Source: an uncultured Acidimicrobiaceae bacterium
GTDB taxonomy: Bacteria; Actinomycetota; Acidimicrobiia; Acidimicrobiales; RAAP-2
Assembly: GCA_963791995.1 (NCBI GenBank)
Contig: CAWBUQ010000016.1
Coordinates: forward strand, 39,535 to 103,534
DNA: 64,000 bases
Reading direction: 5' to 3'
Each line of letters opens with the position of its first letter. Positions within the stretch are counted from its first letter, which is position 1. Positions 28,866 through 41,844 of this stretch are shown one piece after another. A model generated the notes under the pieces. That model searched no databases, was not told where the DNA came from, and was given only the letters and a program-made list of their open reading frames with translations. Position numbers and translations under genes: made by a program.

Positions 28866-29518
28866 GCCGCCTGGACCCTTCGAGGTGAGCCCGCCGGGGT
28901 CGCAAACTTCGATCCTGGGGCCCAGCGTCGAGCAGACGCACAGCCCTCACGCGCGATCGCGCCGCCGACTGGGTGGCCAGGATCGGGGTGTTCGCCGTGG
29001 CACCTCCGATCCTCGTCTACGCCATTCCCGGCTATCCGAACACCTACTACAACGAAGGCATCAACGAGATCTTCGGGTCGGCATCCTCCTCAACGAAGCC
29101 TCGGTCATCGGCGTGCTCGTGGCGCTGGCCGGCACTCTGCTGCACACGTAGCAGGCAGACAGAGGGCGACGGGTCAGCGCCGGCGCTGTGCAATCGACCG
29201 CGCCGGTTTGACGCACGTCCGAATATGACAGCGCGTGCCAGCGCACATATCTGAATGATGGACCGTACAATATGTACGGAAATCGGAAAATGTCCCCACA
29301 CTCCAATCGATGGGTGTACCATCACCTCCATGGAGCACGTCTACGCGGAGAGCTGCCGGGCGCACCGGTACTCAGAAGGTCTCACCGGCCTTCTGATGTC
29401 GCGCGGACGCGCCATGGCCCAGACCTTGAAGGCCCAATCCTTCGGTTGGGTCTCGATCGACCCCCGGGAGGTGCCCTCAACGGCATAACTAGGACTTATA
29501 TACGTCCAGTTCGTTGAG

Positions 29519-29548
29519 GAGCCGCTTCCGAAAGGGGGCGGCTCTTTT
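29519..29548 (+). terminator. Rho-independent terminator-like hairpin
   Basis: gagccgc (29519-25) / gcggctc (29538-44), 12-nt loop, followed by tttt (29545-48). Confidence 0.5.
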
Positions 29549-29591
29549 CTATTCCTGGGCCAGATGCGGAACTGAATAGTCAAACACTCGA

Positions 29592-29663
29592 AGGGGTGTA
29601 GTCCAGCGGAACGGACAGCCGGCTCCAACCCGGCGGACCTGGGTTCTACTCCTGCCACCCCTG
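29592..29663 (+). tRNA. tRNA-Trp(CCA), non-canonical T arm
   Basis: Acceptor AGGGGTG/CACCCCT, D arm GTCC/GGAC, anticodon stem GCCGG/CCGGC, loop CTCCAAC. T stem weak (CTGGG/CCTGC), T loop TTCTACT. Confidence 0.6.
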
Positions 29664-29789
29664 CAGGGCGAAGCCATGTCCTTTTTGCCTAAATGGGCAA
29701 TTGAACCACCGTACATTGACAACTAAATAGTACCCAAGATTGGGGATCGGAGCCACGTCTATTGGCGCGGCGACACCGACCGATCCCGC

Positions 29790-29873
29790 CCCGGTGACCT
29801 CTGTTGGCTAGAGGAGCGCGGCCGTAACCCGCGCGGCATTGTGCCTGCGGTCGTTCGATTCGACCCACCGGGA
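29790..29873 (+). tRNA. tRNA-Tyr(GTA), class II, C33
   Basis: Acceptor CCCGGTG/CACCGGG, anticodon stem CGCGG/CCGCG, loop CCGTAAC, long variable arm GGCA-ttg-TGCC, T arm GGTCG-TTCGATT-CGACC. Confidence 0.6.
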
Positions 29874-29877
29874 CCCT

Positions 29878-29953
29878 GGGCCCATGGCACGAGTGGTAGT
29901 GCACCTCGTTTGCAGCGAGACGCGTGCCGGTTCGAGCGCGGCCGGGTCCACCA
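29878..29953 (+). tRNA. tRNA-Ala(TGC) with G3:U70 and encoded CCA
   Basis: Acceptor GGGCCCA/CGGGTCC (G3:U70, A7.C66), D arm GCAC-GAGTGGTA-GTGC, loop TTTGCAG, T arm GCCGG-TTCGAGC-GCGGC (G53.G61), 3' ACCA. Confidence 0.65.
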
Positions 29954-30036
29954 CGCGGGCGGAAAAGGAAGACGCGCTGGGCTCAGACCCCGGTGGGCTC
30001 ACGCCCGTGAGAGTTCGACTCGCTCCGCTGGTACCA
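29950..30036 (+). tRNA. tRNA-Leu(CAG), class II, imperfect acceptor stem, encoded CCA
   Basis: D region GCGGAAAAGGAAGACGCG, anticodon stem CTGGG/CCCGG, loop CTCAGAC, variable arm GGGC-tcac-GCCC, T loop TTCGACT, 3' CGCTGGT-A-CCA. The 5' ACCACGC pairs only 4 of 7. Confidence 0.5.
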
Positions 30037-30037
30037 G

Positions 30038-30111
30038 GCGCCTCTAGCTCAGTTGGGAGAGCGATGGACTCTTAATCCATGCCGTCGGGGGGTCGAGTCC
30101 CTGGGGGCGCA
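30038..30111 (+). tRNA. tRNA-Lys(CTT), T loop lacks T54
   Basis: Acceptor GCGCCTC/GGGGCGC, D arm GCTC-AGTTGGGA-GAGC, anticodon stem ATGGA/TCCAT, loop CTCTTAA. T region GGGGG-GTCGAGT-CCCTG. Confidence 0.65.
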
Positions 30112-30199
30112 CTCGGCCGGAGTCATCCGGTCACACGCGTGGCTTCCACCCACGAGTAATGGGGGCGGTACCCATTGACCCCTCCATTCACGCAACCGC

Positions 30200-30269
30200 T
30201 CGGGAGTCGTCCAACGGCAAGACGCAAGGTTTGGTCCTTGAGATGAGGGTTCGACACCTTCCTCCCGAA
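30200..30269 (+). tRNA. tRNA-Gln(TTG)-like (or Pro TGG) with a 6-nt anticodon loop as assembled
   Basis: Acceptor TCGGGAG/CTCCCGA (U1:A72 as in bacterial tRNA-Gln), D region GTCCAACGGCAAGAC, anticodon stem CAAGG/CCTTG, loop TTTGGT, T arm GAGGG-TTCGACA-CCTTC. Confidence 0.5.
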
Positions 30270-30478
30270 CCGCCAGAAAGGAGGCGATTCAATGCGACAC
30301 AATCGGTTGAAGCTCGTCGTTCCCGACGACGCAGCAAAGAATGAGACGGAAGACGCGACCGAGTTCGTCGTAGGACCGGCGACGCCGGGTCCTTCTGCGG
30401 CGCGCCTTCGTCTCGTCGAGCGACGACGATGGACCGTTTCCGGACGGACGCGGCGTGACCAACTGTCGCTCGAGAATT

Positions 30479-30551
30479 GCCGGCCGGGCCCAACGGGATG
30501 GGCACTGGCTTTGTAACCCAGTCGATCCGGGTTCGAGTCCCGGGGCCGGCT
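30479..30551 (+). tRNA. tRNA-Thr(TGT)
   Basis: Acceptor GCCGGCC/GGCCGGC, D arm GCCC/GGGC, loop TTTGTAA (one C.C at the stem end), T arm CCGGG-TTCGAGT-CCCGG. Confidence 0.8.
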
Positions 30552-30554
30552 CGA

Positions 30555-30626
30555 GGTCATGTAGCTCAGTTGGGAGAGCGCGCGCCTGAAACCCTCGAGG
30601 CGATGGATCGAGACCACCCATGACCA
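30555..30626 (+). tRNA. tRNA-Phe(GAA)-like, poor anticodon stem and A54 T loop (possibly a pseudo-tRNA)
   Basis: Acceptor GGTCATG/CATGACC, D arm GCTC-AGTTGGGA-GAGC, loop CTGAAAC but the stem pairs 3 of 5. T region GATGG-ATCGAGA-CCACC. Confidence 0.45.
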
Positions 30627-30631
30627 CTTCG

Positions 30632-30706
30632 GGACACATAGCTCAGCGGCAGAGCGCCGGCACGACACGCCGGAGGTCGGGCTTTCGAAACGCCCTGTGT
30701 CCACCA
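30632..30706 (+). tRNA. tRNA-Val(GAC), C33, encoded CCA
   Basis: Acceptor GGACACA/TGTGTCC, D arm GCTC/GAGC, anticodon stem CCGGC/GCCGG, loop ACGACAC, T arm GGGCT-TTCGAAA-CGCCC, 3' A-CCA. Confidence 0.7.
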
Positions 30707-30715
30707 GTCATCTGA

Positions 30716-30787
30716 CGGCCCGGAGTCAGGCGGTGACGACGCCGCTCTGATACAGCGGAAGGCCTCGTTCGACACGGGGCGGGCCGA
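30716..30787 (+). tRNA. tRNA-Ile(GAT)
   Basis: Acceptor CGGCCCG/CGGGCCG, 3-bp D stem GTC/GAC, anticodon stem CCGCT/AGCGG, loop CTGATAC, T arm CCTCG-TTCGACA-CGGGG. Confidence 0.7.
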
Positions 30788-30792
30788 CCCGA

Positions 30793-30864
30793 GCATCCGT
30801 AGCTCAACGGCAGAGCGCCACGTTCACATCGTGGAAGTCGAAGGGTCAGCACCTCCCGGATGCA
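30793..30864 (+). tRNA. tRNA-Val(CAC), unusual T loop GTCAGCA
   Basis: Acceptor GCATCCG/CGGATGC, D arm GCTC-AACGGCA-GAGC, anticodon stem CCACG/CGTGG, loop TTCACAT, T region GAAGG-GTCAGCA-CCTCC. Confidence 0.65.
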
Positions 30865-30887
30865 CGTGGGCGCAGGCGTCCCCACTT

Positions 30888-30960
30888 GGTGGATGGAGCC
30901 GGATGGAGAGGCGGGTGGTCGTGGACCGCCCAGCAGGGAGTTCGATTCTCCTCATTCACC
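30888..30960 (+). tRNA. tRNA-His(GTG) with G-1:C73, C33
   Basis: G-1 (30888) plus acceptor GTGGATG/CATTCAC and discriminator C, anticodon stem GGTGG/CCGCC, loop TCGTGGA, T arm GGGAG-TTCGATT-CTCCT. Confidence 0.7.
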
Positions 30961-30984
30961 CGGGTCTTATGACCCGCAACGCAA

Positions 30985-31057
30985 CGCAGCGGGGAGGGAT
31001 GGTGACCTCACGGGTCTCATAAGCCCGAAGATCTCCGGTCAGTACGGAGCGCTGCGA
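30985..31057 (+). tRNA. tRNA-Met(CAT) (elongator Met or Ile2 type), unusual T loop GTCAGTA
   Basis: Acceptor CGCAGCG/CGCTGCG (C1:G72 paired, so not initiator-like), D arm GAGG/CCTC, anticodon stem CGGGT/GCCCG, loop CTCATAA, T arm CTCCG-GTCAGTA-CGGAG. Confidence 0.75.
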
Positions 31058-31102
31058 CTAGGGCCGGAGCACTCGTGCACTCGTGTCGCTTTGGGATACC
31101 TC

Positions 31103-31175
31103 GCCGGTGATGCTCGGGTGGCTGAGCGCCCACCTCGTACGCGGGAGCGCGAGAGTTCGACACTCTCCACCGGCT
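31103..31175 (+). tRNA. tRNA-Thr(CGT)
   Basis: Acceptor GCCGGTG/CACCGGC, D arm GCTC-GGGTGGCT-GAGC, loop CTCGTAC (stem with one A.C), T arm GAGAG-TTCGACA-CTCTC. Confidence 0.75.
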
Positions 31176-31460
31176 CTGGGCGGAGTCACCGCAAGCCCGA
31201 CTCGTGCACTTCGTGGGTGAACCCGGACCGATCTGGCGCACTGTTTGGTTGTCACTGTGAGCTGCATCGGGTCGCGAGCCCCAAGGGGGACGTCGGGACA
31301 GAACCGACTTCGTGCTGACCGAGGGTGGGACTGGGGACTCCGACGCGCAGACTTCGGATTCGATACCCGAAGGCTCTGGCAGGACCGGAGAGTGGCGAGG
31401 GCCGCGCTGTCCCGTGCTCGAACTCGTGGATCCTCGTAGGAGTGTGCCCCAGATCGGGTT

Positions 31461-36334: not shown

Positions 36335-38114
36335 TCACTCGGCCGGTAGGCGCCACCCCACGAGTGCAGCACGCAGACGCTTCAGAGGTGCCTTGGGAGT
36401 TCTGTCCATGCGCACCAAGCCGTTGGTCTCTTGAAACGTGTCGGTGAGTTGCGTCCAGCAGTATCCCGAAATCACCGGGCTGTACAAGACCGCTCGACAA
36501 ATGTCGCAGACTTGCTCGAGCCACGATTCGATCGTGGGGGCATTGCCGTAGCCATAGGCGTCAGGTGCTTCCTCGGCGAGCATGATGCCACCGCATTCCG
36601 ACAGGACGATTGCCCGCGACTCGGCGTCGAACTCGTCAAGGGCCAACGTCCGTATTTCAGGGCCCAGGCCATCGAATAACTCGCCGACACTCTGAGCAGA
36701 CGCGTACCGCGAGGTGAGCGCCGCCGCATCCTGCATGTAGTCGTGAATACCGATCACGTTTCCACCCCACGTCTCCCAGCCGTCGTTTGCGCTGATGAGA
36801 CGGTGCGGGTCGAGTGCCATCGTCAGATTCGTGAGCCCTCGCAAGGCCGCACGGTGTTGCTCGTTGTGAGTGAGATCTGGAAACCCCCACGATTCATTGA
36901 CTGGAACCCACGCGATGATCGACGGATGGTTGCAATCTCGAGAGATGACGCGCATCCACTCGGTCGTCAAGGCGACGACCGTACTGCGGCGAGAACTCGT
37001 GGGCACTGGGGAGTTCTTCCCAGACGAGAACCCCAAGTTCATCGCAGAAAGCAAGCCAGCGCGGATCCTCGATCTTCTGATGTTTGCGAACACCATTGAG
37101 GCCCAGCTCCTTGACCAATTCGACATCTCGGCGCAGTGCCGCCACGTCGGGAGCAGTGAGTCCGCTGTCAGGCCAGTATCCCTGGTCAAGAGCCATCCGA
37201 AGGGTGAGCAGCTCACCATTCAGCCATATGCGTCCACGCTCAACCGCGACGGAGCGGATCCCCACATAGCTTTCGACCGCGTCGGTCTCACTTCCGGTGA
37301 CGTACTCGATGGAGGCATCAATCAGAGTGGGCCGATCGGGGCTCCAGAGAAGGCCCGCCGGATCCTCTGTCGCGGCGGATTGCAGGTTGAATGTTCGGGC
37401 TACTTGGACGCTCTGGTCGCGCACGCCCTTCACAGCGATCTGGTCGTCGATCAATGGCCTCGTGCCCTGAAACAGCCGCACTCGCATGAAATCCCCAGGG
37501 CGTGGATCTCCTTGAATTTCTGCTCTCAGTGATACGGACGGCCCATCGATATCTGATGTCCAGTCGAGCTGCGCGATGTAGGTCCTCGGAGTCCATTCCA
37601 GCCACACCGACTGCCAAATCCCAGTGGTGCGGCTGTACCAGATCTCGTGCGGCTTCGATGTCCAATCCTGCTTCCCGCGTGGAAGACCTTTCCTCCTCGG
37701 GAAGTCATCCGCCCGCACCACAATTTCGAGCTCATCTGCCTCAGACACAGCGTGACTGATGTCGACAGCAAATGGAGTGTGTCCTCCCTCGTGGGAGCCA
37801 ACCATCTCCCCGTTGACCCAAACCCAGGACGCCCAATCGATCGCTCCGAAGTGAAGGATGACCCTCTTCTCAGATGGATGATCGACCGGCGGCCGCCACA
37901 TCCGGCGGTACCAACACCGGCTCAGATCTCCAGTGAACTTGACGCCACTGAGCACCGTTTCGGGACAGAAGGGCACCAGGATGCGTGCGTCGAAGTCCAC
38001 ATCAGAGGGGTGCTGCCACCCGCTGTCGGGATCCACTGCAAAATCCCACGACCCGTCGAGGCTCTCCCACGTGGAGCGCCGAAGAAGGGGACGCGGAAAT
38101 TGTTCGTCTCGCAT
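36335..38114 (-). CDS. GH2-family glycoside hydrolase (beta-galactosidase/glucuronidase-like), 1 frameshift near 36960
   Basis: ..VILHFGAIDWASWVWVNGEMVGSHEGGHTPF..; ..GLNGVRKHQKIEDPRWLAFCDELGVLVWEE..; ..NHPSIIAWVPVNESWG..; ..SECGGI.. (ORFs 36894-38114 and 36335-37219). Confidence 0.8.
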
Positions 38115-40094: not shown

Positions 40095-40170
<76 letters not shown>

Positions 40171-40361
40171 CCCCGGAATGTGAAGCAAAGGGTCCAAGAA
40201 CAGCCCCCGAACGTTAGCAGCGAGCCAATGGGCTGACGGCTCCCGAAGCGCCTCAGAGAACGCCCCTGAGGAGGGCTCTTGGAGACGGCGGCCCGCCCGT
40301 CTGGCGCTTCCAGCCGGCGCAGACCGGGCAGACCGAAGCGTCATTCCCGTAACCTTCGACC

Positions 40362-41844
40362 ATGACGATCAACACCGCCGTACCCATCCGCCACGCCGAC
40401 CGCTTCTTCATCGGCGGGAAGTGGGTCGAGCCCTCGTCCTCCGACGTCATCGAGGTCATCGACTCGTCGACCGAGGAGCCCTACTTCAGCGTCGCCGAGG
40501 CCCGCGAGGCCGACATGGCCCGGGCGGTCGACGCCGCCCGCGAGGCCTTCGACCGCGGGCCGTGGCCCAGGATGACGCACGCCGAGCGGGCCGAGTACCT
40601 GCGGGCGATCGGCGAGGGCCTGCGGGGCAAGGCCGACGAGGTCGGCCAGCTGTGGCCCCGCGAGTCCGGCGCACTGCACCTCATCGCCCAGCACACCGCC
40701 CCCGGCATGGCCGGCGTCTTCGACTTCTACGCCGGCCTGGCCGACACCTTCCCCTTCGAGGAGCGGGCGCAGCCGACCATGGGCGGCGAGTTCGGCCTGC
40801 TGGTCCGCGAGCCGGTCGGCGTGGTCGGGGCGATCATCCCGTGGAACGCACCGCTCGGCCTCATCTCCTACAAGATCGCCCCCGCCCTGCTCGCCGGATG
40901 CACGGTCGTCCTCAAGTCCTCGCCGGAGGCTCCCGGCGCCGCCTACCTCTTCGCCGAGATCGCCGAGGACATCGGCTTGCCGCCGGGCGTGCTCAACGTC
41001 GTGACGGCGGACCGCGAGGTCTCCGAGCTCCTGGTGCGCAACCCCGGCGTCGACAAGATCACCTTCACCGGCTCCACCGCGGCCGGCCGTCGCATCGCCT
41101 CGCTCTGCGGTGAGCGGATCGCCCGCTGCACGCTCGAGCTCGGCGGCAAGTCGGCCGCGGTGATCCTCGACGACATGGACCTGCAGGCAGGCCGCCAGCG
41201 CCATCTCGGGCGCCGAGTGCTTCCTCTCGGGGCAGGTCTGCTCCTCGCTGACCCGGCTCATCGTCAGCCGCTCCCGCCACGACGAGTTCGTCGAGGCGCT
41301 GGCCGGCACCTTCTCCCAGGTCAAGGTCGGCGACCCCTTCGACGCGCAGACCCAGATGGGGCCCGCTCGCCATGGACCGCCAGCGCGACCGGGTCGAGGG
41401 CTACATCGCCAAGGGTGTGGCCGAGGGAGCGAAGCTGGCGACGGGCGGTGGCCGCCCCAAGGACCTCGAGCGTGGCTACTACATCGAGCCGACCGTCTTC
41501 GGCAACGTCGACAACCACTCGACCATCGCCCAAGAGGAGATCTTCGGTCCGGTCCTCAGCGTGATTCCCGGCCGACGACGAGGAGCACGCCGTCGACCCT
41601 CGCCAACGACACGATCTACGGCCTCAACGCCTCGGTCTTCACCAACGACGTCGACCGGGCGCGCCAGGTCGCCGGCCAGCTGCGCTCGGGCACCGTCGGC
41701 CACAACGCCTTCCGCACCGACTTCGGCATGGCGTTCGGCGGCTTCAAGCAGTCGGGCATCGGCCGAGAGGGTGGGACCGAGGGTCTGCTGCCGTTCCTCG
41801 AGACCAAGACCGTGATCCTCAACGGCGAGCCCAGCGGCTCCTAG
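40362..41844 (+). CDS. NAD(P)-dependent aldehyde dehydrogenase, 3 frameshifts as assembled
   Basis: ..[11 protein letters not shown].., ..[11 protein letters not shown].., ..[11 protein letters not shown].., ..[10 protein letters not shown].., ..NASVFTND.. are spread over ORFs 40362-, 41372- and 41356-41844. Confidence 0.85.

What the first reader, a model, noticed from the sequence alone, without database searches (positions are those of the whole stretch)
29790..30960. C33 instead of the near-universal U33 in three array tRNAs (Tyr, Val-GAC, His)
With the only sensible 5-bp anticodon stems, the 7-nt loops read CCGTAAC (Tyr, 29822-29828), ACGACAC (Val, 30662-30668) and TCGTGGA (His, 30919-30925). 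Position 33 is therefore C in all three.

Established knowledge: U33 forms the U-turn and is almost invariant in elongator tRNAs. As I recall, anticodon-loop substitutions have been proposed for phage tRNAs as a way to escape anticodon nucleases.

These are substitutions rather than homopolymer length changes, so they do not resemble the indel artefacts seen elsewhere in this assembly.
Basis: partly seen in the sequence, partly recalled or inferred. Interest (0 to 1): 0.6.

Follow-up and report, generated by a model that had tools for sequence, protein, structure and literature searches.

The report
C33 tRNAs in spare tRNA array
Three intact tRNA genes in a bacterium's spare tRNA cluster really do carry C instead of the near-universal U before the anticodon; the change is inherited and shared by related soil bacteria, not a sequencing error, but whether it protects against tRNA-cutting enzymes is untested.

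Summary
Observation confirmed. tRNA-Tyr(GTA), tRNA-Val(GAC) and tRNA-His(GTG) of the array at 29592-31175 have C33; none of 41 credible tRNAs elsewhere in the genome does.

The host is an Acidimicrobiales soil MAG, not a phage. Its array is a cut-down copy of a 23-30-gene long tRNA array (L-array). In about 19 of 21 related arrays the RNA-repair ligase gene rtcB follows directly; this genome has none.

Across the 21 arrays, 97 of 428 tRNAs have C33. It is fixed in some isoacceptors (Val-GAC, Glu-UUC, nearly His, Asn, Leu-CAA), mixed in Tyr and absent from twelve others. It goes with U or A at position 35. Only pyrimidines occur at 33.

The genes are under purifying selection: 95% identity against 76% for spacers, and 98.7% of stem pairs intact. 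Positions 32, 33, 37 and 38 change 3-5 times faster than the tRNA body.

New here: C33 is also common in ordinary single-copy tRNA-Val(GAC) genes of many phyla, whereas housekeeping Tyr and His keep U33.

Nuclease escape stays unproven. No PIN, PrrC-type or colicin E5/D domain was found, and published U33C substrates are still cut by colicin E5 and gamma-toxin.

This scan has already reported C33 in RtcB-linked arrays of at least eight other genomes.

The parts
29592..31175 (+). Same-strand tRNA array of 13-14 genes. It is a truncated member of an Acidimicrobiales L-array family that normally has 23-30 tRNAs followed by rtcB.
   Evidence: ARAGORN, Rfam, homologous arrays at 79-94% identity, RtcB after the relatives' arrays
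29790..29875 (+). tRNA-Tyr(GTA), class II, loop CCGTAAC, C33 at 29823. It has no stem mismatch. The first pair is C1:G72, where the chromosomal copy has G1:C72.
   Evidence: C33 is shared by 8 of 17 orthologues. Housekeeping Tyr in 68 Actinomycetota genomes is all U33.
30632..30706 (+). tRNA-Val(GAC), loop ACGACAC, C33 at 30663. It has the best Rfam score of the array.
   Evidence: C33 is in all 16 orthologues. The identical anticodon arm occurs in arrays of other phyla. C33 also occurs in housekeeping Val(GAC).
30888..30961 (+). tRNA-His(GTG) including the encoded G-1 at 30888 and C73. Loop TCGTGGA, C33 at 30920. It has no stem mismatch.
   Evidence: C33 is in 16 of 18 orthologues. G-1 and C73 are kept in 17 of 18; G019 has T at the aligned position 73. 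No C33 housekeeping His was found in 250 Actinomycetota genomes.
30200..30271 (+). Array tRNA with a 6-nt loop (TTTGGT). It is most likely tRNA-Gln(TTG) with a T-run called one base short.
   Evidence: Orthologues read TTTTGGT. Illumina contigs insert a T after 30229.
29954..30037 (+). Remnant of tRNA-Leu(CAG), which ARAGORN does not call here. It is intact at this slot in the relatives.
   Evidence: Leu-CAG lies between Ala and Lys in the other arrays. Other contigs carry 5 extra bases after 29957.
29515..29550 (+). GC-rich hairpin followed by a T run, terminator-like, just upstream of the array.
   Evidence: sequence. The about 50-nt element recurs at other loci in genomes of the genus.

Best explanation
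The three C33 bases are genuine, inherited states of working or recently working spare tRNAs. They lie in a truncated long tRNA array (L-array) of an Acidimicrobiales soil bacterium.

Shown:
- The array family is under purifying selection for cloverleaf, anticodon and identity elements.
- C33 is specific to certain isoacceptors and is shared across species.
- Only pyrimidines occur at position 33.
- C33 is concentrated in tRNAs with U or A at position 35.
- The loop flanks 32, 33, 37 and 38 evolve at about the rate of the spacers.
- C33 is also a common state of ordinary housekeeping tRNA-Val(GAC).

Inferred: a pyrimidine at 33 is enough for a usable anticodon loop, as in eukaryotic initiator tRNAs and yeast tRNA-Leu(GAG). 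In supernumerary tRNAs, which are probably used only under translational stress together with RtcB, U-to-C transitions at 33 would then be nearly neutral in the permissive isoacceptors. In GC-rich genomes they would drift to fixation. On this view Val C33 is an old alternative state of that isoacceptor, while Tyr and His C33 reflect the relaxed constraint of array copies. No specific benefit of C33 needs to be assumed.
For: - C33 is shared by orthologues in up to 21 arrays, including Illumina assemblies.
- tRNA identity is 95.0% against 76.1% for spacers. Stem cells are 98.7% canonical, with 94 compensatory pairs.
- 17 of 18 array His genes keep G-1 and C73.
- Position 33 is T in 328, C in 97, A in 3 and G in 0.
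- Parsimony changes per column: 0.81 at position 33 and 1.15 at position 38, against 0.233 for the tRNA body. Spacers diverge about 4.8 times more than the tRNA body.
- C33 frequency by position 35: 44% with U35, 26% with A35, 7% with G35 and 2% with C35.
- The AT-rich Anabaena L-array is 24/24 U33.
- Other 'universal' positions are also relaxed in the arrays: U8 66%, T54 77%, A58 86%.
- Housekeeping Val(GAC) has C33 in three species of the same genus and in 80 of 80 fetched loci from many phyla, 72 of them solitary. In a 250-genome Actinomycetota sample it has C33 in 20 genomes against 56 with U33. Without the unpublished genomes G085, G132 and G171 the count is 18 against 55.
- Yeast tRNA-Leu(GAG) carries a natural C33 with little functional cost (PMC13492127).
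Against: - Pure drift does not easily explain why C33 is fixed in some isoacceptors and absent from twelve others under the same mutation pressure.
- Array-type Val(GAC) genes that are only about 70% identical overall keep an identical anticodon arm including A32 and C33 (although they were ascertained by that very sequence).
- The array family is physically tied to an RNA-repair ligase, which points to RNA-damage conflicts.
- Expression and aminoacylation were not shown here. Metatranscriptome contigs covering the array may be DNA carry-over.
- The G000 copy shows signs of decay: half the genes and rtcB are lost, Leu-CAG is broken, and it has the highest stem-mismatch load.
Confidence: 0.55

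Rival explanations
1. Adaptive evasion. C33, together with the variable 32, 37 and 38 flanks, makes the spare tRNAs poor substrates for an enzyme that reads the anticodon loop, such as an anticodon nuclease of a competitor, a phage-defence system or a toxin. The array plus RtcB would then restore translation after tRNA damage.
For: - rtcB lies directly downstream on the same strand in about 19 of 21 arrays, and RlaP lies nearby in at least two arrays.
- The loop flanks are the fastest-evolving sites.
- C33 is concentrated in U35 tRNAs (Tyr, His, Asn, Asp, Glu, Gln). From my own knowledge, these are the usual targets of known anticodon nucleases.
- Tyr and His C33 were not found in housekeeping genes.
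- C33 Val(GAC) occurs in two phage tRNA sets.
- The hypothesis is published for phage tRNAs (PMC10264068), and a sponge idea is published for L-arrays (PMC8421152).
- Tyr position 33 changed about 5 times on the array tree.
Against: - No PIN, PrrC/RloC-type or colicin E5/D domain was found in G000. There is only one weak MazF hit.
- U33C leaves colicin E5 and gamma-toxin cleavage unchanged.
- C33 is common in housekeeping Val(GAC).
- The rate at position 33 is no higher than the spacer rate, so positive selection is not needed.
- The Anabaena L-array, the only one studied experimentally, has no C33.
Confidence: 0.27
2. Decay. The array in this genome is a dying remnant, and the C33 genes are pseudogenes accumulating GC-biased mutations.
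For: - G000 lost about half the array and rtcB.
- Leu-CAG is broken.
- Phe, Ala, Trp, Lys and Val-CAC carry G000-specific stem mismatches: 2.0 per tRNA against 0.4-1.4 in most others (only the 7-gene fragment L079 is as high).
- G000 sits on a long terminal branch.
Against: - The three C33 states are not G000-specific. They are shared with intact arrays.
- Tyr and His have no stem mismatch, and Val has the same count as its orthologues.
- Purines are excluded at position 33.
- The family as a whole is under purifying selection.
Confidence: 0.1
3. C33 is corrected after transcription: C-to-U or C-to-pseudouridine editing restores a canonical U-turn. A precedent from my own knowledge is C32 editing in Vibrio tRNA-Tyr.
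For: None directly. Only pyrimidines occur at 33, which is what an editing substrate would require.
Against: No deaminase is linked to the arrays in the flanks examined. RNA-library contigs list no T at 30663 or 30920, although these contigs may come from precursor RNA or from DNA.
Confidence: 0.05
4. Assembly or base-calling error in a long-read MAG.
For: The assembly has indel errors: a frameshifted GH2 gene and a truncated aldehyde dehydrogenase, and a T run called one base short at 30230.
Against: These are substitutions. They are shared by many species and by Illumina-only assemblies, and independent contigs agree at 30663 and 30920.
Confidence: 0.02

Closest known systems
[quoted passage not shown] 2021, PMC8421152) and tRNA array units (Tran et al. 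2016, PMC4758250; Mycobacterium arrays, PMC5966550 and PMC12803027)
   Same: - Dense same-strand operon-like cluster of supernumerary tRNAs that covers most amino acids in the full-length relatives.
- Patchy distribution within the genus, non-syntenic flanks and IS insertions.
- rtcB in the neighbourhood.
- Members deviate from canonical tRNA features.
   Different: - The G000 copy has only 13-14 genes and no rtcB.
- The family sits in Acidimicrobiales soil MAGs.
- About 23% of its tRNAs have C33 in an isoacceptor-specific pattern. None of these papers mentions this in the text I could search.
- The Anabaena array has no C33.
Nuclease-insensitive phage tRNAs (van den Berg et al. 2023, PMC10264068)
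   Same: Extra tRNA copies with anticodon-loop substitutions relative to the host copies. A link to tRNA damage is plausible.
   Different: - The array is not on a phage.
- No cognate nuclease was identified.
- Position 33 is not discussed in that paper.
- U33C does not protect against the two nucleases tested in the literature.
Natural C33 tRNAs: eukaryotic initiator tRNA-Met (Grosjean and Westhof 2016, PMC5041475) and yeast tRNA-Leu(GAG) (PMC13492127)
   Same: C replaces the U-turn uridine in tRNAs that still function.
   Different: Those are eukaryotic. Here the tRNAs are bacterial elongators: array copies of Tyr, His and others, plus housekeeping Val(GAC) in many phyla.

Membership tests
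tRNA array unit / L-array | At least 20 tRNA genes at 2 or more per kb (Tran et al. 2016 definition, abstract) | tested here: not met
   G000 has 13-14 genes in 1.58 kb. The density criterion is met and the number is not. Orthologous arrays have 23-30 genes, so G000 holds a truncated derivative.
tRNA array unit / L-array | Genes in one orientation and close enough to be co-transcribed | tested here: met
   All genes are on the + strand. Spacers are 2-210 nt. A 2-kb contig from an RNA library spans most of the array, which is weak evidence.
tRNA array unit / L-array | Supernumerary: the array duplicates isoacceptors of the housekeeping set | tested here: met
   Trp, Tyr, Ala-TGC, Thr-TGT, Phe, Ile, Val-CAC, His and Met also exist elsewhere in G000.
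tRNA array unit / L-array | Patchy distribution and horizontal spread | tested here: met
   Homologous arrays occur in about 8 of 36 genomes of the genus. Flanks are not syntenic. IS elements lie inside two arrays. The same Val arm occurs in arrays of Chloroflexales and of an alphaproteobacterium.
tRNA array unit / L-array | Induced under translational stress, with tRNAs aminoacylated in vivo (Anabaena, PMC8421152) | not testable with these tools
   Only indirect evidence: purifying selection and retained His identity elements.
Nuclease-insensitive phage tRNAs | Encoded by a phage | tested here: not met
   No phage match. The neighbours are GH43, a BcsA-like GT2, GH2 and a secreted repeat protein.
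Nuclease-insensitive phage tRNAs | The host or a competitor encodes an anticodon nuclease aimed at the cognate tRNA | tested here: inconclusive
   PIN, AAA_13 (PrrC/RloC type) and colicin E5/D domains were not found in G000, which is 81% complete. The E5 model rang in no control genome. There is one weak MazF hit. Nucleases of competitors cannot be searched.
Nuclease-insensitive phage tRNAs | The substitution is known to block cleavage | tested here: not met
   From the literature only: U33C is cut like wild type by colicin E5 and by gamma-toxin. There are no data for other nucleases.

The most novel reading that the evidence does not exclude
C33 next to a U35 or A35 anticodon, together with the rapidly changing 32, 37 and 38 flanks, is a selected disguise. 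It would make the spare tRNAs of RtcB-linked arrays, and of some phage tRNA sets, invisible to a still unknown widespread enzyme that needs U33. Arrays plus RtcB would then form a two-part anti-ribotoxin system: resistant replacements plus repair.
Probability: 0.25. Interest if true: 0.8.

Novelty: new variant of a known kind. Interest (0 to 1): 0.5.

Why it matters
U33 is taught as invariant in elongator tRNAs. Here a whole family of bacterial spare tRNAs under purifying selection breaks that rule, in a pattern tied to isoacceptor and to position 35. Ordinary tRNA-Val(GAC) genes of many phyla break it too.

This gives a natural test set for two questions: what U33 is really needed for, and whether tRNA arrays linked to the RtcB repair ligase are counter-measures against tRNA-cutting toxins.

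For annotation, C33 should not be taken as a mark of a pseudogene.

Tried and rejected
- Phage origin: megablast of the array against 50,697 phage records found nothing. The conserved Val arm has no exact match in the phage or plasmid collections.
- Queuosine evasion: from my own knowledge, U33-G34-U35 is the TGT recognition motif. TGT was not found in G000 or in any of 31 genomes of the genus, so this cannot act in the present hosts.
- C33 as a general L-array trait: the Anabaena trn operon is 24/24 U33.
- Synteny: apart from rtcB and a recurring secreted repeat protein, the flanks differ between species.
- Discarded scans: the pattern scans were too loose or wrongly spaced, and their hits were not tRNAs.
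- 74-aa ORF inside the array (30292-30516): no Pfam hit and only 42-51% identity in relatives, so it is probably not a gene.
- Recurring 50-nt element upstream: it is a terminator-like hairpin.
- Literature: the Alamos et al. paper on the function of ICE-borne tRNAs is not held. One literature query was malformed.
Full report
**What is there**

ARAGORN finds twelve tRNA genes on the + strand between 29592 and 31058, plus a solitary tRNA-Asn at 40105-40177. Rfam adds a thirteenth array member, Thr-CGT, at 31103-31175.

- Tyr: CCGTAAC
- Val-GAC: ACGACAC
- His: TCGTGGA

C33 therefore lies at 29823, 30663 and 30920. Infernal aligns Val-GAC at 53.2 bits with C at model position 33. MFE folds give the same loops for Tyr and Val.

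Outside the array, 41 credible tRNAs of the same 4.6-Mb genome all have U33. Three of 12 against 0 of 41 gives Fisher p = 0.009.

**What organism and what element**

The window lies in a 70% GC MAG that is 81% complete, in 23 contigs. Contig titles of near relatives name Acidimicrobiales or 'Acidimicrobiaceae' soil MAGs.

The neighbours of the array are a secreted repeat protein, a GH43, a BcsA-like GT2 and a frameshifted GH2. None is a phage gene, and nothing in the phage collection matches.

BLAST of the array against relatives finds homologous arrays at 79-94% identity in seven or eight other species of the genus. Those arrays hold up to 28 tRNAs. An exact-word scan adds more, up to 30 tRNAs, some from Illumina assemblies. 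The G000 array is a reduced version of these.

In the six relatives first examined, a 400-aa RtcB RNA ligase gene starts 30-180 nt after the last tRNA, on the same strand. tblastn finds it next to about 19 of the 21 distinct arrays, at 86-95% protein identity. An RlaP-type nucleotidyltransferase lies near at least two arrays.

G000 has no RtcB anywhere in its assembled genome. IS transposases interrupt two arrays. The remaining flanks are not syntenic.

This matches the published class of long tRNA arrays. Those arrays spread horizontally, add redundant tRNAs, and in cyanobacteria are co-regulated with rtcB under translational stress. In Anabaena, 23 of 26 array tRNAs are charged in vivo (PMC8421152).

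**C33 across the family**

In 21 distinct arrays, 97 of 428 tRNAs with 7-nt loops have C33, 328 have T, 3 have A and none has G.

| Isoacceptor | C33 / total |
|---|---|
| Val-GAC | 16/16 (6/6 in the arrays found by BLAST; the rest were ascertained by a word containing C33) |
| Glu-TTC | 8/8 |
| His | 16/18 |
| Asn | 13/15 |
| Leu-CAA | 10/11 |
| Tyr | 8/17 |
| Glu-CTC | 6/13 |
| Thr-GGT | 4/13 |
| Asp | 3/13 |

C33 never occurs in Met, Trp, Ile, Pro, Cys, Thr-TGT, Thr-CGT, Val-CAC, Leu-CAG, Arg-ACG, Arg-CCT or Ser-GCT.

C33 frequency follows the middle anticodon base: 44% with U35, 26% with A35, 7% with G35 and 2% with C35. In the BLAST-ascertained arrays this is 37/103 for U or A against 2/80 for G or C. 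Related genomes are not independent, so the p-values overstate the effect.

**Are these working genes?**

- Orthologous tRNAs are 95.0% identical on average, while the spacers between them are 76.1% identical.
- 98.7% of stem cells are canonical pairs, and 94 pairs show compensatory change. One caveat is that ARAGORN only reports sequences that fold.
- 17 of 18 array tRNA-His genes keep the encoded G-1 and C73.
- Within orthologous groups, nucleotide diversity is 0.023 in stems and 0.039 in T loops. It is 0.092, 0.117, 0.083 and 0.172 at positions 32, 33, 37 and 38.
- On a tree built from the tRNA bodies, position 33 changes 21 times in 26 families (0.81 per column). The tRNA body changes 0.233 times per column. 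Tyr alone changes five times.
- This rate is close to that of the spacers, so the data fit weak constraint within 'pyrimidine only'. They do not demand positive selection.
- Other 'universal' bases are also relaxed in the arrays: U8 66%, T54 77% and A58 86%, against 100, 95 and 100% in the chromosomal set.

**The G000 copy**

The G000 copy looks partly degraded:
- Half of the genes and rtcB are gone.
- Leu-CAG lacks five bases that other contigs have after 29957.
- The stem-mismatch load is the joint highest of all arrays.

The three C33 genes, however, are intact, and their C33 is shared with intact arrays. It therefore predates the decay.

**Sequencing support**

Independent Illumina soil metagenome contigs and metatranscriptome contigs cover the array at 90-99% identity. 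They list no alternative base at 30663 or 30920. The difference list was truncated, so 29823 could not be checked.

Tyr C33 is nevertheless present in seven other arrays, one of them from an Illumina-only assembly.

**Comparison with housekeeping genes**

This part separates the three cases.

*Val(GAC).* Solitary, fully canonical tRNA-Val(GAC) genes in the same genus come in two forms. Six species have ATGACAC. Three species have TCGACAC, which is C33.

All 80 fetched loci hold a canonical tRNA-Val(GAC) with C33: 68 with UCGACAC and 12 with CCGACAC. Seventy-two of the 80 are solitary. They come from Planctomycetota, Chloroflexota, Patescibacteria, Actinomycetota, Desulfobacterota, Aquificota, Acidobacteriota and other phyla.

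In a sample of 250 Actinomycetota genomes, 20 have C33 and 56 have U33 in pattern-matching Val(GAC). One family is 10/10 C33. Three genomes in that sample are flagged as unpublished (G085 and G132 with C33, G171 with U33). Without them the count is 18 against 55.

Two phages also carry a C33 Val(GAC).

*Tyr and His.* All 73 housekeeping Tyr matches in 68 of 100 Actinomycetota genomes have U33; two of these matches are from the unpublished G132 and G171. A C33 His pattern found nothing in 250 genomes, while the U33 control matched 15 of 40.

So Val C33 is an ordinary, if little-noticed, state of that isoacceptor. Tyr and His C33 are specific to the array copies.

*Array-type Val(GAC).* Array-type Val(GAC) genes from other phyla are only about 70% identical to the G000 gene. 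They still share an identical anticodon arm with A32 and C33. They were found through that arm, so this shows constraint only loosely.

**Nuclease escape**

For:
- the RtcB linkage;
- the fast-changing loop flanks;
- the bias towards U35 tRNAs;
- the array-specific C33 of Tyr and His;
- the published proposals (PMC10264068; the sponge idea in PMC8421152).

Against:
- G000 shows no PIN, PrrC/RloC-type or colicin E5/D domain, and only one weak MazF hit.
- Colicin E5 needs only a pyrimidine before GU and cuts a U-to-C substrate equally well (PMC1635277).
- Gamma-toxin is unaffected by U33C (PMC2275089).
- The only experimentally studied L-array has no C33.

Evasion of queuosine insertion is excluded for the present hosts, because TGT was not found in 31 genomes of the genus.

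**Verdict**

The element is a truncated L-array, not a phage tRNA set.

The most economical reading is tolerated pyrimidine-33 variation in spare tRNAs, with Val(GAC) as a general exception to the U33 rule. I give this 0.55.

Adaptive escape from an enzyme that reads the loop remains possible, at about 0.27. It is directly testable.

After I had reached the L-array and RtcB reading, I looked up earlier notes of this scan. C33 in RtcB-linked arrays or phage tRNA clusters had already been reported in at least eight other genomes. This finding is therefore a further instance. What it adds is the contrast between housekeeping Val(GAC) and housekeeping Tyr and His.

Noticed in passing
L083:176-1504 (+), L085:264-1475 (+), L087:216-1427 (+), L080:7662-8870 (-), L090:8202-9374 (-): An RtcB RNA ligase gene lies directly after the last tRNA of the homologous arrays, on the same strand, in about 19 of 21 arrays. 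G000 has no RtcB at all in its assembled genome. An RlaP-type nucleotidyltransferase lies upstream in G025 (L082:7921-8697) and in L068.
   Followed up: yes
L238-L317; L110, L111, L112: Ordinary single-copy tRNA-Val(GAC) genes with C33 (UCGACAC or CCGACAC) are widespread in many bacterial phyla. They make up roughly a quarter of pattern-matching Val(GAC) genes in an Actinomycetota sample. U33 is thus far from invariant for this isoacceptor.
   Followed up: partly
window 30200-30271: The 6-nt anticodon loop TTTGGT is probably a T run called one base short. Orthologues read TTTTGGT, and Illumina contigs insert a T after 30229. The gene is therefore tRNA-Gln(TTG).
   Followed up: yes
window 29954-30037: The tRNA-Leu(CAG) slot is not called as a tRNA here. 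Other contigs carry five extra bases (GGCGT) after 29957, so the G000 copy is broken or misassembled.
   Followed up: partly
window 29790-29875 and orthologues: All array tRNA-Tyr genes start with C1:G72, the archaeal and eukaryal type. The chromosomal tRNA-Tyr has the bacterial G1:C72. Whether the bacterial TyrRS charges the array form is open.
   Followed up: no
array family (21 arrays): Array tRNAs often lack other 'universal' bases: U8 in only 66%, T54 in 77% and A58 in 86%. Stems stay intact. Array-type Val(GAC) genes have very varied T loops.
   Followed up: partly
genus-wide (31 genomes): No tRNA-guanine transglycosylase (TGT) was found in any searched genome of the genus. These bacteria probably lack queuosine.
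   Followed up: partly
L051:3203-4462 (-), L056:962-1945 (+): Transposases are inserted inside two arrays: a Mutator-family one in G032 and a DDE_Tnp_1 one in G030.
   Followed up: partly
array slot after Val-GAC or Ile in G010, L068, G017, G025, G019: The same array slot carries different anticodons in different species: Ile-GAT or Ser-GCT in one slot, and Glu-CTC or Lys-TTT in another. This suggests anticodon switching or gene replacement within arrays.
   Followed up: no
window 30292-30516: A 74-codon ORF with a strong Shine-Dalgarno sequence lies between Gln and Thr-TGT. It has no Pfam hit and is only 42-51% identical in relatives, so it is probably not a gene.
   Followed up: partly
window 36335-38114 (-), 40362-41564 (+): A GH2 gene is split into two frames, and an aldehyde dehydrogenase matches only the first half of its family model. 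Both are consistent with indel errors in a long-read assembly.
   Followed up: no
window 29560-31200 in runs X9 and X16: Metatranscriptome assemblies from wetland and rhizosphere samples contain contigs of up to 2 kb that span most of a closely related array. This may be polycistronic transcription or DNA carry-over.
   Followed up: partly
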